From Mizuhopecten yessoensis (lineage: Eukaryota), in the NCBI RefSeq assembly GCF_002113885.1, contig NW_018408820.1:1284754-1348753 (forward strand): 64,000 bases of DNA, read 5' to 3'. The position numbers were made by a program. Position 1 is the first letter of the stretch; every line of letters begins with the position of its first letter. Positions 6,001 to 33,000 of this stretch are shown here, in pieces.

Positions 6001-9000
6001 AGCATTTACATACCTGGCGTGCATTGTCTAAAATGTATGTGTATTCAGTAATCTGATAGCTGTACCTAAGGTAGATATACCTGTGTTTTGGGTAATAAGA
6101 CATACCTGTACTGTAGGTAGATATACCTGTGTATTGGGTAATAAGACATACCTGTACTGTGGATAGATATACCTGTGTTTTTGGTAATAAGACATACATG
6201 TACTGTGGGTAGATATACCTGTGTATTGGGTAATAAGAAATACCTGTGTATTGGGTAATAAGCCATACCTGTACAGAATGTAGATATACCTGTGTATTGG
6301 GTTATAAGACATACCTGTACTGTAGATAGATATACCTGTGTATTGGGTAATAAGATATACCTGTACTGAAGGTAGATATACCTGTGTATTGGGTAATAAT
6401 ACATACCTGTATTGTAGGGAGAGATACCTGTGTATTGGGTAATAAGACATACCTGTACTGTAGGTAGATATATCTGTGTATTGGGTAATAAGACATACCT
6501 GTACCATGGGTAGATATACCTGTGTATTGGGTGATAAGACATACCTGTACTGTGGGTAGATATACCTGTGTATTTGGTAATGAGACATACCTGTACTATG
6601 GGTAGATATACCTGTGTATTGGGTGATAAGACATACCTGTACTGTGGGTAGATATACCAGTGTATTTGGTAATGAGACATACCTGTACTATGGGTAGATA
6701 TACCTGTATATTGGGTTATAATACATACCTGTACTATGGGTAGATATACCTGTGTATTGGGTAATAATACATACCTGTATTGTAGGGAGAGATACATGTG
6801 TATTGGGTAATAAGACATTCCTGTACTGTAGGTAGATATACCTGTGTATTTGGTAATAGGTTATTCCTGTACTGTGGGTAGATATACTTGTGTATTGGGT
6901 ATTAAGACGTACCTGTACTGTGGGTAGATATACCTGTGTATTGTGTAATGAGACATACCTGTACTGTGGGTAGATATACCTGTGTATTGTGTAATAAGAC
7001 ATACCTGTACTGTGGGTAGATATACCTGTGTACAGGGTAATAAGACATGCCTGTACTGTGAGTATAGATATACCTGTGTATTGGGTAATAAGACACAATT
7101 TTTCCAAAAGTTATTGCCCTTTGTTTATTTCAAAATTTGATTTTTGTCCGGCAATCTCCTCCTACATTTTTCAACAGATCTCTTTGAAACTTGGTATACA
7201 TTTGATAATAATCATGATATGAAGTTGTGTCTCCCTTAAAAGAATTTTGATTCAACGATTTTTGCAAACATTATTGCCCTTTATTCATTTCAGTATCTTA
7301 TATTTTGTCCAGAGATTTCATCCTACATTTTTTATAGCATGTCAGCTTACCACTCTTAGAATGATGCAGATCTTATTTCAATGTAAGAAAGTATATAACA
7401 CTATATGGCATTCGACAGGCGTATATTGTTCCACCCCACAGTACTCTTGTTCTCAATTTTACTGCATTGCAAGGTCACAGGAGATATGCATATCTAGTGA
7501 CTTTGAATGACAGGTCAGGGATACAGCCCATTAGGCCTCTTGTTTCTCTTGCAGGTGCGATTGTATTTATTGAGACTTAAATTAGGTTTGACATCCTAAT
7601 ATATTTTTATTGCGACGTTAGATAAGTTTGTTATCCCCCGCTTTCACCGAAACGGGGGATATTAATTTGGGTTTGTCCGTCTGTCTGTCACACTTCGTTT
7701 CCGTGCAATTACTGCAACAATGGTTAACCGATTTTTTCAAACTTGGTTACAGGGTTAAATGTCTTAAGGGCTCAGCCGAGTTTGATTACCACTTTCAGCA
7801 GACTTTATTTGGCAGAGTTATGGCCCCTTGAATAACGAAAAACGTCATTATCTGCAGTTTCCGCTTAATAACTCTAGCAAATATTAACCAAATTCCTTCA
7901 AACTTGATATCAATGTTTGTGTTCCTCTGTCTGTCTTTCTCGGACACTCTTTGGTTTTCTTTTGATAATTGCTGTAGATATTGTGCAGATATTTCAACCA
8001 AATTCTGCATGCCAACCGATGTGATTTGTGCATATGTACAGATAATTAATGAGGTATAAGGCTAGTAGCTTTGTTGGTAATTAAAAGCCCAACAAAGTAT
8101 GAGAACGAAAATGACCTTGACCTACTATCAAGGTCACAGGGGTCAAATATGTAAAACTTATCAAACAATATCATCTGAATATTCGAAATGCATAGAATCA
8201 TAATATTTGGCTGGTAAATGTCACAGATAGAGCCTGACAAAGTTTGCTATTGAAAATTACCTCAACCTACTTTAAAGGTCACAGGGGTCAAATATAGCAA
8301 ACACTGTACACAGCTTCTTTTGAAGAAGTGAAAGGCATGGAGTGGTGATATTTAACAAGTAGCTTCCTTGGATAGAGCCCAACAAAGTTTGCGAATGGAA
8401 ATGACCTTTACCTACTTTATCATATTGCTTTATCTTAATCTAATTTGATATAGAGTATCCTTGGCCCAACATGGTTCAATGTTGTAGAAACCATGCCTCC
8501 AACCCTAATAGGGACAGGAGAATGGGACCCAATAAGGTAAGGGTATTACTGAGATATGTACAGAGCCAATATTTGGAAATATTTGTAGTACAGTAAAATA
8601 TTTATTTAATATTTTGCTTTGACTGCTTAAATATCCAGGTGTACAATACAGGCCCTCTGTGCCTCTTGTTTTTAGCCCATTGTTATAGGCCTCACATAAG
8701 TAAGCATGTTTGTAATCTGTTTTTATAGGCTTGAGACACAGACAGAATACACTAAGGCCGCGGCTGTAGCTCTTTTTAACCTGAGAATGGGCAAGTCTAT
8801 ACAGATCCTGAGTAAGACTGCTACAAAACAAGGTAAGGATGTGATAACACGTTGCTACAAAACAAGGTAAGGATGTGATAACACGTCTCTATACAGATCC
8901 TGAGTAAGACTGCTACGAAACAAGGTAAGGATGTGATAACACGTCTCTATACAGATCCTAAGTAAGACTGCTACGAAACAAGGTAAGGATGTGATAACAC

Positions 9001-30000: not shown

Positions 30001-33000
30001 CCTAATTTACTCACTTTCGAGACGTAATTTCTTTTTCATTCTTTCTTTTCTTCAGAATCAGGTTACTACAGACAGCAGTGAAAACCTTCCGTCCTACACC
30101 CAATACTGTCGTTCGCTGTCCACGTCCTCCAGCATGAGCATGGAAACATCTCAGTGCACAAACTTCAATCAAAATGCCGCAAATGGCAATTACATGGGAG
30201 ACCAGGACGACATGCTCGGCCACAATACCGCCGTTTCCGACGTCCCCTTTGTGCTGAATCCTCAAATCCAAACCATGGTTGACATTACACATGGCAATGT
30301 GCCTTGCTTACATCAACATCCGATTAACCTGTCCAAGTATTCGTATGACTTCAGTCTGGAGAACTCTATGATTAGTGACACAGACAAGTTTTACTAGATG
30401 TACCTGTGATAGATCATTCTGACCGTAAATTACCATACCGGTAGTTTTTGATTGGCTGTTATAAAAAATCAATCAAACAAAGGTATACTGTAAAATCATA
30501 CATTTTCATGGGACATTTAATTTGATCATTTCGTGGATAATAAAAATCCACGAAATTAAATCCCTACGAAAAAATAAATTTGGTATGTTATAGATAGGGG
30601 AAAATTAGAAATCAGTGAAATATAATGTCCTTGAAACAGGTGAGTATATGAAAACCACGAAATTTTTACCCCACGAAAATAAATGATTTTACAGTACATA
30701 TGTTGGCCAGTTTCCCAAGCAAATGAATATACTTTTTAAAACATCAATATGTAGATTGATTGTTTCTCCAGTTAACCCTTTCACCACTGTAGACCATAAT
30801 GGACTCATCCATATCAATGCATGGTAGAATCTACTAAAGTTACATAGGGGTGAAAGGGTTAAATTAACAAATTCATTAATTGTTTATGATTATTTATAAC
30901 ATGCATAATATGGTACAACATACATTTTTGTTCGAAATCTGACTAAATAGTGTTGCCCAGTCAAATATTCGCCCATTTCCGATAAAGTCCATGTTAGTGT
31001 AAATATGCCCTTCACATGTAGTTACTATATACTGCATGTTGCTTGCTAACATTTGTTGTCATGATAGATTGGGGAGGGCAAAAAAAGGCGAAAGTAAAAC
31101 TGTGGTGAAAATTTCCTGGTTTATAAGTTGACAATGGTCACAGAAATCGTATATATATGTTCAGAACATTTGCAATACCTCTTCTGTGATGTGAAAGATA
31201 AATTTATTTTAATAATAATTAATAATAATTCGAGGTTCTTATATACCGCTTTATCACAATCTAGTTTGTAGGTCTTCTGAAAGTGGTTCATAAATTATTA
31301 TCCATGGTTATAGGGCCTTTGCAACCAGCGAATATCATTCTCAACACCCTGGGGAGCATACAACCAGTGCTTCCATTTCGGCACTCACACCTGGCATTGT
31401 ACAATTCTAGCACTACCCAACCACATACTCATTTACAGCTGAGTAGACTGGAACAAGCGGCGGAAGGTATCTTGCTCAAAGATACAACACAGTGCCGTGA
31501 CGTGAACTATGCATGCTACAAGCTGTGTCTGTGAAGGGGCGTTATTTTACCCACATACTATTTTATCATTAACATACACTGTACAGGATGTCTAATTGTT
31601 TTACAAGGTCTTTACTTTCATAGACTGGCTACCAGCCCCTTAGGTTATATGAAGAATTTCTCTGCTGCATTTTACTACTAGCTTATCTCCCCCTAGAATC
31701 AGACATCCAAGTGATCAAATTTTTTGAGTTAAACTTTTTTCTTAATAATTCAATATTCTAGAGACGGGGGCCAGTCTATTGCTTTCACAACAACGACTTT
31801 TTGGCAAAACATACACACCATGGTCAAATCAGCAAATATAGACAAAGAAAATATGCGTGTGTTGTGTGTATGAATGGTGTTATCACGTACTGAATATATT
31901 AGTTGCTGTTTGGTGTACTTGGTGATAGGTTTACATAAATGTCTGTGACACTTGTACCTATTTCCCTTTGTCTTCTCTGTTCATTGTATATAATAACATG
32001 CTTGAACTGACATAAAAGAAAGTTTAAACTAAAATGACATTTGCCAAAACAAAGATTTTCAACTGTAATTGGAAACACTCCAAAGAGAAACAAGGTTATA
32101 AAAAAAAAAGTGAAAAGTTGTGATGCAAAAGTTGATTTGCTAATATGACAATGTTAGTTTTATATCACATTGAGGTATACCTGGTACAACTACCTGTGTT
32201 TTATATCCCTACTTATAACCCTATATTTTATTTTTTATATTTTATTTTAAATTGATTTGTCCGAACAGGTTAATCTTCCAAAACTTTGATCTTGATAAAA
32301 GTTATCACTAATGGGCTACCTATATGGAGCAGGCCCAGCATATTGACTTTCTCCACTAGCCTCACTGTCACAAAACATTTCTATTTTAAGAATCTATATA
32401 TATATCATTTTAAGAAATATGCTTTCCTTATTGATAAATAAAAAAAGGTAATTATGTAAAAACTTTGATAAACTGTCCTTTTTTGCAAGAATTAACCACA
32501 ATAAATCGCCTTACACTACTTTGGTGTCCAATTAATACAATCAATACAATTTTTGAAAAATTTACAGATTTGCTTTACCGGGTAATCAGGTGTTATCAGC
32601 CTTTTGCCACTTGGAAAACATCCCAGGATTGTGTGTGCATGATGTGTATTCTGTTCTGTTTTGCAATGAGACTGTGCTTCCAATTTTTTAGTGCTAATTC
32701 GCTTGATTAAGTCAAATACTTCAAGCAAAAAACACTGACTCTGCAACACCCACCCAGACCATTTAATGGCGGTCTGTGTGGAAGGACAGAATTTTATACC
32801 ACTTTGCCAAATCTGCTCAAATTTATTCATTGAAATCTTTTCAATATTCACACTAAATATTTCTTACAATTTGAAAAGAAATGTGAAAATTCCCATAGAT
32901 AGTTCCGTTGAGGTGGTCAATATATAAAATATCTATAACATATCTGTTTAACAGTGTGGTTACAGTGACTGCTGATAATGAAGCCATTTGCTGAATTTTT

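What the first reader, a model, noticed from the sequence alone, without database searches (positions are those of the whole stretch)
8729..30397. MIOS(+)-RPA3(-)-UMAD1(+) microsynteny matches the human locus
The three genes reconstructed here have the same order and relative orientation as on human 7p21 (MIOS convergent with RPA3; RPA3 head-to-head with UMAD1, formerly RPA3-AS1/RPA3OS). If the host is a mollusc, the block has survived since the protostome-deuterostome split. It links mTORC1 nutrient sensing (GATOR2), ssDNA binding/replication and ESCRT-I, which hints at a shared regulatory constraint.
Basis: partly seen in the sequence, partly recalled or inferred. Interest (0 to 1): 0.65.

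Follow-up and report, generated by a model that had tools for sequence, protein, structure and literature searches.

The report
Old MIOS–RPA3–UMAD1 gene neighbourhood
An invertebrate-looking genome piece carries the tail of MIOS, a whole RPA3 and a UMAD1-like gene side by side, as reported for the human 7p21 neighbourhood; this is one more case of a well-known kind of ancient gene-order conservation.

Summary
The three genes are in the window, in the stated order and orientation, as direct neighbours. MIOS(+) is only its 3' part: 9 GT-AG exons, 8729-17258, about 361 aa, collinear with human MIOS ~515-875. Pfam gives MIOS_a-sol E=2.8e-23 and the PDB best hit is human MIOS, E=1e-20. RPA3(-) is complete: 4 exons, 28036-23189, 117 codons. 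Two of the 4 exons hit only human RPA14, at collinear residues. The UMAD1-like gene(+) has 2 exons, 29417-30394, with a C-terminal UMA domain (VPF and YxFxxE motifs; weak Pfam MVB12 hit, E=0.0013).

Exon identity to human is 31-55%, so this is not a human contig. The host taxon could not be determined.

The human side is only partly checked. Papers confirm that the genes cluster at 7p21.3 and in pig. Their order and strands rest on recall.

RPA3 and UMAD1 start codons lie 1,380 bp apart, head to head, across a CpG-rich stretch with an E2F-like and two CRE sites. A shared bidirectional promoter is the likeliest constraint. Nothing ties MIOS in: 5.9 kb tail to tail, full of repeats.

No genome survey was possible. 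This is an ordinary member of the known class of ancient microsyntenic blocks. Side observation: minisatellites anchored on 5' splice sites.

The parts
8729..8832 (+). MIOS exon a, the first MIOS exon detectable in the window (internal exon, phase-2 start)
   Evidence: Pfam MIOS_a-sol positions 119-158 of 230, E=2e-9. AG acceptor and GT donor.
9785..9954 (+). MIOS exon b
   Evidence: Pfam MIOS_a-sol 158-214, E=2.8e-23, 83.1 bits against a cut-off of 27. PDB best hits are human MIOS residues 550-608, E=4e-11, 25 of 59 identical.
10959..11027 (+). MIOS exon c
   Evidence: Pfam MIOS_a-sol 194-230, E=0.049. GT-AG, phase fits.
11497..11569 (+). MIOS exon d
   Evidence: Open frame with AG/GT and the phase needed between exons c and e. 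No separate homology search.
11839..11977 (+). MIOS exon e; its donor is the first unit of a 35-bp x 43.6 minisatellite (11967-13485)
   Evidence: Frame and GT-AG. No Pfam hit for this piece. Tandem repeat.
14356..14397 (+). MIOS exon f (42 nt)
   Evidence: Frame, GT-AG, phases fit exons e and g.
15000..15174 (+). MIOS exon g
   Evidence: Frame, GT-AG. No Pfam hit for this piece. The single N of the window (15346) lies in the following intron.
15448..15556 (+). MIOS exon h (zinc-ribbon start); the donor lies in the first unit of the 24-bp x 26 minisatellite 15548-16174. An alternative in-phase donor is at 15535.
   Evidence: Pfam zinc_ribbon_16 positions 35-61 of 125, E=5e-6..
17056..17261 (+). 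MIOS last exon with stop codon (17259-17261)
   Evidence: Pfam zinc_ribbon_16 73-123, E=9.3e-14. PDB best hit is human MIOS 814-869 of 875, E=1e-20, 31 of 56 identical; WDR24 and WDR59 reach only 1e-6 to 1e-5.
17262..23185 (.). Tail-to-tail spacer between MIOS and RPA3 (5,924 bp): 20-bp x 62 repeat at 18076-19317 and dispersed-repeat copies
   Evidence: The longest ORFs in it have no Pfam family.
23186..23262 (-). RPA3 exon 4 with stop (23188-23186); its 3' end lies inside a 100-bp x 2 tandem duplication (23014-23214)
   Evidence: Frame, AG acceptor, phase fits exon 3. No PDB or Pfam hit of its own. Tandem repeat.
23782..23893 (-). RPA3 exon 3
   Evidence: PDB search at E<=10 returns only human RPA14 (3 of 3 distinct sequences), residues 60-91, E=0.084, 10 of 32 identical. 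GT-AG. No Pfam hit.
27250..27324 (-). RPA3 exon 2 (25 codons)
   Evidence: Frame and GT-AG. Its length exactly fills human residues 34-58 between the matches of exons 1 and 3. No RPA hit of its own (0 of 14 PDB hits; Pfam none).
27947..28036 (-). RPA3 exon 1 from the ATG (28036)
   Evidence: Pfam Rep_fac-A_3 positions 1-27 of 105, E=5.4e-4, 20.7 bits against a cut-off of 23.5. PDB returns only RPA14 (3 of 3), residues 4-30, E=0.94, 10 of 27 identical.
28037..29416 (.). Head-to-head spacer between the RPA3 and UMAD1 start codons (1,380 bp); putative bidirectional promoter in its RPA3-proximal part
   Evidence: CpG o/e 1.14 (27800-28199) and 1.26 (28200-28599) against 0.69 for the window. E2F-like site at 28082 (1 of 5 in the window). 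TGACGTCA at 28202 and 28474 (2 of 10 in the window). Function is inferred.
29417..29647 (+). UMAD1-like exon 1 from the ATG (77 codons); an alternative in-frame donor after 29584 would give 56 codons
   Evidence: Frame, GT donor, phase 0 into exon 2. No informative Pfam hit and no MVB12/MABP match.
30056..30397 (+). UMAD1-like exon 2 (113 codons plus stop): UMA domain at the C-terminus
   Evidence: Pfam DUF2464 (MVB12) positions 172-253 of 253, E=0.0013, 18.8 bits against a cut-off of 22. A VPF motif, then Y-x-F-x-x-E 34 residues later, against V89/Y125/F127/E130 in human UMAD1 (passages of PMC10445733). PDB gave 0 hits.

Best explanation
The window carries the 3' ~41% of a MIOS orthologue, a complete RPA3 orthologue and a small UMA-domain gene of the UMAD1 type. 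They are immediate neighbours in +/-/+ orientation.

Shown: the gene identities (strong for MIOS, moderate for RPA3 and UMAD1), the exon structures, the order, the orientation and the distances.

Inferred:
1. The arrangement is a remnant of an ancestral animal gene neighbourhood that is also kept at human 7p21.3.
2. The RPA3-UMAD1 pair is held together because both genes are driven from one short divergent promoter region. This region is CpG-rich and carries an E2F-like and two CRE sites next to the RPA3 start. A break between the genes would cost one of them its promoter. This is the co-regulation class of conserved 5'-5' pairs.
3. MIOS lies next to RPA3 tail-to-tail without any visible shared element. 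It is probably a passively retained neighbour.
For: MIOS: Pfam MIOS_a-sol E=2e-9, 2.8e-23 and 0.049 on three successive exons at collinear profile positions 119-230, and zinc_ribbon_16 at 5e-6 and 9.3e-14. The PDB best hit is human MIOS, 1e-20 and 4e-11, far ahead of WDR24 and WDR59. There are nine GT-AG exons with consistent phases, and a net length difference of 3 residues over ~260 against human.

RPA3: exon 1 hits Pfam Rep_fac-A_3 positions 1-27 at E=5.4e-4. Exons 1 and 3 each return only RPA14 from the whole PDB, at residues 4-30 and 60-91. The exon lengths (30, 25, 37 codons) reproduce the human numbering with no gap. The model has 117 codons, against the 121-residue chain listed.

UMAD1: a C-terminal UMA match and the VPF and YxFxxE motifs. 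No MABP part was found in exon 1 or in the two upstream + strand ORFs tested. The tcag7.903 group is described as 'conserved across Metazoa' with its own N-terminal extensions (passages of PMC2881412). Its identification with UMAD1 is my inference from the citation in PMC10445733.

Neighbourhood: no Pfam-recognisable gene lies between the three. Human and pig clustering of the same genes is reported.

Promoter: spacing and motifs. Irimia et al. 2012 (passages of PMC3514665) report 595 conserved non-paralogous pairs, enriched in 5'-5' orientation; 5'-5' pairs make up 75.8% of human pairs with fully conserved orientation.
Against: RPA3 exons 2 and 4 have no homology support of their own. The exon 1 Pfam score is below the curated cut-off, and the PDB E-values (0.084, 0.94) are weak taken singly.

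The UMAD1 Pfam hit is below its cut-off, and exon 2 has no PDB hit.

The MIOS 5' 59% was not found (0 of 107 ORFs), so a truncated copy or an assembly break is not excluded.

Human order and strands are recalled. No transcription start sites, expression data or other genomes were available.

The ATG-to-ATG distance of 1,380 bp is longer than the usual <1 kb for bidirectional promoters, and the CpG-rich part lies at the RPA3 end only (28600-29399 has CpG o/e 0.17-0.41).

The synteny does not extend further in the window. No Pfam family at E<=0.01 was found for 0 of 147 ORFs in 30465-41088. Among 104 ORFs in 48300-64000 the only family was a 2OG-Fe(II) oxygenase (2 ORFs), so no GLCCI1-, ICA1- or COL28A1-type family appears.
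Confidence: 0.6

Rival explanations
1. Neutral survival. The block is ancestral, but no selection keeps it. In slowly rearranging genomes a small fraction of adjacencies, and a few consecutive pairs of adjacencies, survive by luck.
For: MIOS-RPA3 shows no shared element: 5.9 kb, tail-to-tail, mostly repeats. The three functions are unrelated. Robert et al. 2022 report that shuffled genomes still give 45-56 'blocks' against 256 real ones at the bilaterian node, and that lophotrochozoans and ambulacrarians keep most such blocks (passages of PMC8851819). If 1-3% of adjacencies survive, a handful of surviving triples is expected genome-wide (my arithmetic, inference).
Against: The RPA3-UMAD1 pair has just the orientation and short spacing that Irimia et al. 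found enriched among conserved pairs. The promoter-like features lie in the spacer.
Confidence: 0.3
2. All three genes form one regulatory block. This is the reader's 'shared regulatory constraint': enhancers for one gene lie in a neighbour's introns, or the three share one chromatin domain.
For: All three are adjacent in the window, with no recognisable gene between them. Human and pig also keep them together.
Against: None of the three is a developmental regulator of the kind that anchors such blocks (passages). The introns here are short, 269-3,356 bp, and are filled with tandem and dispersed repeats. No conserved non-coding sequence could be tested.
Confidence: 0.07
3. Mis-assigned orthology or a chance resemblance. 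The UMA gene would be another UMA-domain family member, or the RPA3-like exons would be spurious, so that there is no true match to the human locus.
For: The RPA3 and UMAD1 evidence is below curated thresholds. Two RPA3 exons and UMAD1 exon 1 have no hits. The joined proteins were not searched or folded.
Against: Two separate RPA3 exons retrieve only RPA14 from 177,635 PDB sequences, in the right order and register. All splice sites are canonical and all phases fit. The UMA gene has UMAD1 architecture: it is small, has a C-terminal UMA domain, and has no MABP or UBA part.
Confidence: 0.03

Closest known systems
Conserved ancestral microsyntenic pairs (CAMPs) of Irimia et al. 2012, and the bilaterian microsyntenic blocks of Robert et al. 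2022
   Same: Non-paralogous neighbours kept between distant animals. The RPA3-UMAD1 pair has the 5'-5' orientation and short spacing that mark the co-regulated class (passages).
   Different: Membership needs conservation in at least 4 of 11 lineages; here only this contig and mammals are in hand. RPA3, MIOS and UMAD1 occur 0 times in the main text of either paper. Their supplementary lists, which may hold the pair, were closed.
Bidirectional-promoter gene pairs such as HSPE1-HSPD1
   Same: Head-to-head genes with a short spacer (HSPE1-HSPD1: <1 kb, shared bidirectional promoter; passage).
   Different: Here the spacer is 1,380 bp between start codons. Transcription start sites and co-expression are unknown. 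The promoter-like CpG-rich part sits at the RPA3 end.
Human 7p21.3 locus (COL28A1, MIOS, RPA3, UMAD1, GLCCI1, ICA1)
   Same: The same three genes lie together. The same cluster is on pig chromosome 9.
   Different: In human, one SNP is intronic to both RPA3 and UMAD1, which implies that the genes overlap; here they do not overlap. The human neighbours GLCCI1, ICA1 and COL28A1 were not found in the window. The flanks here are TRIM-like B-box/NHL genes. Human strands and order are recalled only.
Genomic regulatory blocks (developmental gene plus bystanders)
   Same: Linkage of functionally unrelated genes.
   Different: There is no developmental regulator in the trio, and the introns are short and repeat-filled.

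Membership tests
MIOS (GATOR2 subunit) | MIOS-specific alpha-solenoid domain | tested here: met
   PF21719, 83.1 bits against a cut-off of 27 on one exon; neighbouring exons continue the profile from 119 to 230. The PDB best hit is human MIOS.
MIOS (GATOR2 subunit) | C-terminal zinc-ribbon/RING-like domain, closer to MIOS than to WDR24 or WDR59 | tested here: met
   PF17034, 52.2 bits against 27. MIOS scores 1e-20 against 1e-6 to 1e-5 for WDR24 and WDR59.
MIOS (GATOR2 subunit) | N-terminal WD40 propeller and the first half of the solenoid | tested here: not met
   Not in the window: 0 of 107 upstream + strand ORFs of >=22 aa match, while the positive control does. They may lie beyond the window start, so the gene's completeness is open.
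RPA3 (RPA14, Rep_fac-A_3) | Match to the Rep_fac-A_3 family | tested here: inconclusive
   Exon 1 alone scores 20.7 bits against a cut-off of 23.5, E=5.4e-4. Exons 2-4 give none. The exons were searched one at a time, so the whole-protein score is unknown.
RPA3 (RPA14, Rep_fac-A_3) | Collinear similarity to a solved RPA14, and a length of about 120 aa | tested here: met
   Exons 1 and 3 hit only RPA14, at residues 4-30 and 60-91. 117 codons.
RPA3 (RPA14, Rep_fac-A_3) | OB-fold | not tested
   This would need the joined protein, which was not built.
UMAD1 (tcag7.903 group of UMA-domain proteins) | UMA domain with VPF motif and conserved C-terminal glutamate | tested here: met
   VPF and Y-x-F-x-x-E are read in exon 2 and compared with residues named in PMC10445733 and PMC2881412. 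Pfam MVB12 C-terminal part, E=0.0013, below its cut-off.
UMAD1 (tcag7.903 group of UMA-domain proteins) | Small protein without MABP (MVB12) or UBA (UBAP1) domains | tested here: met
   190 codons in 2 exons. No MABP or UBA hit in exon 1 or in upstream + strand ORFs. The stop follows directly after the UMA domain.
UMAD1 (tcag7.903 group of UMA-domain proteins) | Group-specific conserved N-terminal extension; binding to ESCRT-I (TSG101 with VPS37B or VPS37C) | not testable with these tools
   No reference sequences of the group were obtainable.
Conserved ancestral microsyntenic pair/block | Adjacency kept in several independent animal lineages beyond a shuffled-genome expectation | not testable with these tools
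   Only bacterial and archaeal genomes were searchable. The literature gives human and pig only.
Bidirectional-promoter pair | Head-to-head orientation with a short spacer | tested here: met
   1,380 bp between ATGs. A CpG-rich stretch with an E2F-like and two CRE sites.
Bidirectional-promoter pair | Start sites <1 kb apart and correlated expression | not testable with these tools
   No transcript data.

The most novel reading that the evidence does not exclude
RPA3 and UMAD1 form an ancient, jointly driven cell-division module. One E2F/CRE-type divergent promoter, kept since before the protostome-deuterostome split, would couple the supply of the small RPA subunit to that of an ESCRT-I subunit. 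RPA acts in replication and coats ultrafine DNA bridges. UMAD1 is needed for abscission. ESCRT-III is reported to assemble on RPA3-positive bridges (passages of PMC13468122; PMC10445733). MIOS would be a passenger.
Probability: 0.2. Interest if true: 0.45.

Novelty: new member of a known kind. Interest (0 to 1): 0.25.

Why it matters
If the pair proves conserved across many phyla, it adds one documented case to the co-regulated class of ancient gene pairs. It would also give a concrete reason to test whether RPA3 and UMAD1 are co-expressed. That bears on how human variants at the 'RPA3-UMAD1' GWAS locus act; one such variant is an eQTL for RPA3. It would also extend UMAD1, described in the 2023 functional paper as 'conserved across vertebrates', to an invertebrate with the ESCRT-I-binding motifs intact. 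On its own it does not change the picture of animal genome evolution, because hundreds of such blocks are known.

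Tried and rejected
- PDB search with UMAD1 exon 2: 0 hits at E<=10.
- RPA3 exon 2: 14 PDB hits, none of them RPA (designed repeat proteins, CyaY). RPA3 exon 4: 0 hits. Pfam gave nothing for exons 2-4.
- Upstream MIOS exons: a first attempt with long frame translations failed because of stop codons. After that, 20 ORFs of >=40 aa and 107 ORFs of >=22 aa gave none.
- Extension of the synteny to GLCCI1, ICA1 or COL28A1: 10 long ORFs, 147 ORFs in 30465-41088 and 104 ORFs in 48300-64000 gave only a 2OG-Fe(II) oxygenase.
- RNA genes: 0 Rfam matches and one tRNA-Val-like call.
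- Literature (main texts only):
  - MIOS+RPA3+synteny: 1 paper, on an unrelated subject by its title and abstract.
  - RPA3+microsynteny: 1 paper, on sorghum.
  - RPA3OS / RPA3-AS1 / bidirectional promoter: 0.
  - RPA3OS: 0.
  - RPA3 + bidirectional promoter + head-to-head: 3 papers, none about this pair by title and abstract.
  - UMAD1+RPA3: 37 papers, 20 listed, mostly GWAS, none on gene order.
  - One search was badly framed and says nothing about UMAD1.
  - 'Syntenic' together with RPA3 was never searched.
- Orientation of the human genes: no passage found.
- Considered and rejected: a human contig (identity 31-55%); an MVB12 or UBAP1 gene (no MABP or UBA part).

Full report
**What the window is**

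The window is 64,000 bases at 38% G+C, with CpG o/e 0.69 and a single N at 15346. I do not take it for human. The exons that can be aligned to human proteins are 31-55% identical: 10 of 32, 10 of 27, 25 of 59 and 31 of 56 (counted on the alignments). The genes are also compact; RPA3 coding spans 4.85 kb. The two B-box/NHL (TRIM-like) genes in the window fit what I recall of bivalve genomes, but that is recall and not a test.

**MIOS**

Nine + strand exons were found: 8729-8832, 9785-9954, 10959-11027, 11497-11569, 11839-11977, 14356-14397, 15000-15174, 15448-15556 and 17056-17258, with the stop at 17259-17261. All have AG/GT borders and mutually consistent phases, and together they hold 1,084 nt.

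- Pfam places three successive exons on MIOS_a-sol positions 119-158, 158-214 and 194-230 (E=2e-9, 2.8e-23, 0.049).
- Pfam places the last two exons on zinc_ribbon_16 (5e-6, 9.3e-14).
- The pieces holding exons e and g gave no hit. Exons d and f were not searched on their own.
- Against the PDB, exon b and the last exon find human MIOS first (4e-11 at residues 550-608; 1e-20 at residues 814-869 of 875). Yeast Sea4, WDR24 and WDR59 follow far behind.
- Counting codons between those two anchors gives a net difference of 3 residues from human. The window therefore holds the equivalent of human residues ~515-875.

The N-terminal ~59% (the WD40 propeller and solenoid positions 1-118) was not found. 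Twenty + strand ORFs of >=40 aa and then 107 ORFs of >=22 aa outside the tandem repeats gave no MIOS family, while a positive control was recovered. Upstream, on the opposite strand, lies a B-box/coiled-coil/NHL gene (3795-5462). Either it is nested in a MIOS intron of >=8.7 kb that runs off the window, or this MIOS copy is truncated. I cannot tell which. The N at 15346 lies in the intron between exons g and h and was left alone.

**RPA3**

Four - strand exons were found: 28036-27947 (from the ATG), 27324-27250, 23893-23782 and 23262-23189, with the stop at 23188-23186. That makes 351 nt or 117 codons, all with canonical borders.

- Exon 1 matches Pfam Rep_fac-A_3 positions 1-27 (E=5.4e-4, 20.7 bits, below the whole-protein cut-off of 23.5).
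- In a PDB search open to E=10, exon 1 returns only RPA14 (3 of 3 distinct sequences), at residues 4-30.
- Exon 3 likewise returns only RPA14 (3 of 3), at residues 60-91, E=0.084.
- Exon 2 returned 14 hits, none of them RPA. Exon 4 returned none.
- Exon 2's 25 codons exactly fill human residues 34-58 between the two anchored exons. The model ends one residue short of the end of the 121-residue human chain.

Taken singly the E-values are weak. Two exons finding the same 121-residue protein, in order and in register, is what carries the call.

**UMAD1-like gene**

There are two + strand exons: 29417-29647 (from the ATG; an alternative in-frame donor lies after 29584) and 30056-30394, with the stop at 30395-30397. 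Together they hold 190 codons.

- Exon 2 matches the C-terminal part (172-253 of 253) of Pfam DUF2464/MVB12, E=0.0013, 18.8 bits against a cut-off of 22. De Souza and Aravind defined this part as the UMA domain, and they note that this Pfam model does not detect the other UMA proteins (passages of PMC2881412).
- The exon carries a VPF motif, then Y-x-F-x-x-E 34 residues later. Glover et al. mutated V89-P90-F91, Y125, F127 and E130 of human UMAD1 and found VPF essential for ESCRT-I binding (passages of PMC10445733).
- There is no MABP or UBA part, neither in exon 1 nor in the + strand ORFs upstream. The stop follows the UMA domain directly. The architecture is therefore that of UMAD1 and not of MVB12 or UBAP1.
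- The 2010 paper calls the corresponding group (tcag7.903) 'conserved across Metazoa'. The 2023 paper says 'conserved across vertebrates'. An invertebrate member is thus expected, not new.
- The PDB gave no hit and the Atlas was unavailable.

**What was not done on the models**

The exons of each gene were searched one by one. This leaves open the whole-protein Pfam scores, the OB-fold of RPA3 and full-length reciprocal best hits.

**Neighbourhood**

The MIOS stop and the RPA3 stop are 5,924 bp apart (convergent). The RPA3 ATG and the UMAD1 ATG are 1,380 bp apart (divergent). The ten longest ORFs in the spacers and introns have no credible Pfam family, so the three genes are direct neighbours as far as can be seen.

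The match to 7p21.3 does not extend further within the window. No Pfam family at E<=0.01 was found for 0 of 147 ORFs between 30465 and 41088. Then comes a RING/B-box/NHL gene (41094-43394, -). Then come two ORFs of a 2OG-Fe(II) oxygenase among 104 tested.

**The human side**

Passages in three papers show the following.
- COL28A1, MIOS, RPA3, UMAD1, GLCCI1 and ICA1 share one 7p21.3 region (PMC5958065).
- One SNP is intronic to both RPA3 and UMAD1, which implies that they overlap in human (PMC7509520).
- Pig chromosome 9 has MIOS, RPA3, UMAD1 and GLCCI1 together (PMC10500877).

I found no passage giving order or strands. That MIOS is on the + strand, RPA3 on the - strand and UMAD1 on the + strand, and that UMAD1 was once named 'RPA3 opposite strand', is my recollection.

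**Chance**

This is my arithmetic, not a tool result. For ~20,000 randomly placed genes, a named triple in a given order and relative orientation has probability ~1e-9. Over all triples that is ~2.5e-5. If genes are confined to an ancestral linkage group of ~1,000 genes, it is ~0.01 genome-wide. Independent assembly is therefore not credible, and the block is inherited.

Inheritance is not the same as constraint. If 1-3% of ancestral adjacencies survive between two such lineages, a few surviving triples are expected with no selection at all.

**Mechanism**

Only RPA3-UMAD1 shows the anatomy of a constrained pair.
- CpG o/e is 1.14 at 27800-28199 and 1.26 at 28200-28599, against 0.69 for the window.
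- An E2F-like site lies at 28082, about 45 bp upstream of the RPA3 ATG. It is 1 of 5 such matches in 64 kb.
- Two full CRE palindromes lie at 28202 and 28474, 2 of 10 in the window. The motif names are recalled consensus sequences.
- The UMAD1-proximal 800 bp are CpG-poor (0.17-0.41). I infer that UMAD1 probably starts with a non-coding exon nearer to RPA3. A strong acceptor precedes its ATG.

This fits the co-regulated 5'-5' class that Irimia et al. found enriched among 595 conserved pairs. It also fits the high-density, co-expressed bilaterian blocks of Robert et al.. MIOS-RPA3 has no such feature.

A speculative functional tie exists for the pair alone. RPA coats ultrafine DNA bridges on which ESCRT-III later assembles (PMC13468122), and UMAD1 is an ESCRT-I subunit for abscission.

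**Novelty**

None of my searches of main texts found the trio or the pair discussed as conserved gene order. RPA3, MIOS and UMAD1 do not occur in the main text of the two microsynteny papers I opened. Their supplementary lists, where such a pair would appear, were closed. So were all eukaryotic sequence collections. I file this as a new member of a known kind, of low to moderate interest.

**Side observation**

Several minisatellites in the window start on a 5' splice site. All three tandem arrays inside MIOS begin 8-13 nt before a donor (8819 against exon end 8832; 11967 against 11977; 15548 against 15556). Each of their units repeats the exon tail plus the donor plus 15-24 nt of intron.

The same look is seen in the 40-bp, 73-bp and 57-bp arrays at 52181-53088, 53316-53545 and 55208-55685, and on the minus strand at 6070-7095.

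With an 8-base donor consensus (at most 1 mismatch, GT fixed), 9 of 19 arrays hold a match, and 6 of them hold it in most copies. The summed chance expectation is about 1.3 arrays. The donor bases are not better conserved than the rest of the unit.

One human precedent came up in a search listing, where I saw the abstract only: the F7 intron 7 minisatellite, whose first unit spans the exon-intron boundary (PMC1557585).

Noticed in passing
8819-9361, 11967-13485, 15548-16174, 52181-53088, 53316-53545, 55208-55685 (+); 6070-7095 (-): Minisatellites anchored on 5' splice sites. Each unit repeats the last 8-41 nt of an exon, the GT donor and 15-24 nt of intron. All 3 arrays inside MIOS start 8-13 nt before a donor. 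9 of 19 arrays in the window hold a donor-consensus match (6 of them in most copies), against about 1.3 expected. Mechanism unknown. One human precedent (F7 intron 7) was seen in an abstract.
   Followed up: partly
1-8728: The MIOS 5' ~59% is absent from the window (0 of 107 ORFs). A B-box/coiled-coil/NHL gene lies on the opposite strand just upstream (3795-5462). It is either nested in a long MIOS intron, or it marks a truncated MIOS copy.
   Followed up: partly
3795-5462 (-) and 41094-43394 (-): Two TRIM-like genes read as long uninterrupted ORFs. The first has a B-box plus NHL repeats; no RING was seen in its two ORF pieces. The second has a RING, two B-boxes and NHL in one 766-aa ORF. They flank the trio in place of the human neighbours.
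   Followed up: partly
23014-23214: The 3' end of the RPA3 coding sequence, with its stop codon, lies inside a 100-bp x 2 tandem duplication (92% matches). A second, diverged copy of the C-terminal codons follows the real one.
   Followed up: no
16463-16669 (-), 23504-23650 (+), 30689-30883 (-); also 17632-17841 (-) and 20379-20582 (-): Two dispersed repeat families, recognisable by near-identical ORF translations. Copies lie in the last MIOS intron, in RPA3 intron 3, downstream of UMAD1 and in the MIOS-RPA3 spacer (seen by eye). No Pfam family for the second family.
   Followed up: no
30465-41088: A 10.6-kb stretch downstream of UMAD1 without any Pfam-recognisable ORF (0 of 147 ORFs of >=36 aa at E<=0.01).
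   Followed up: partly
about 54100-57400 (+): A 2OG-Fe(II) oxygenase gene (2 of 104 ORFs match PF13640, best E=4.3e-6), which by eye looks like a prolyl 4-hydroxylase. One of its exon-intron junctions is multiplied 8.4 times by the 57-bp repeat at 55208-55685.
   Followed up: partly
51136-52207 (+): A 286-aa Lys/Ser-rich ORF without a credible Pfam family. It is preceded by a 22-bp x 2.8 repeat whose unit holds a CRE-like ACGTCA core and is followed directly by the 40-bp donor-containing repeat.
   Followed up: no
44785-48273: A 3.5-kb array of 65/130-bp units (27-41 copies), upstream on the minus strand of the RING/B-box/NHL gene.
   Followed up: no
61916-61998 (-): An 83-nt tRNA-Val(CAC)-like call by ARAGORN with no Rfam match at gathering score. 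It may be a tRNA-derived repeat.
   Followed up: no
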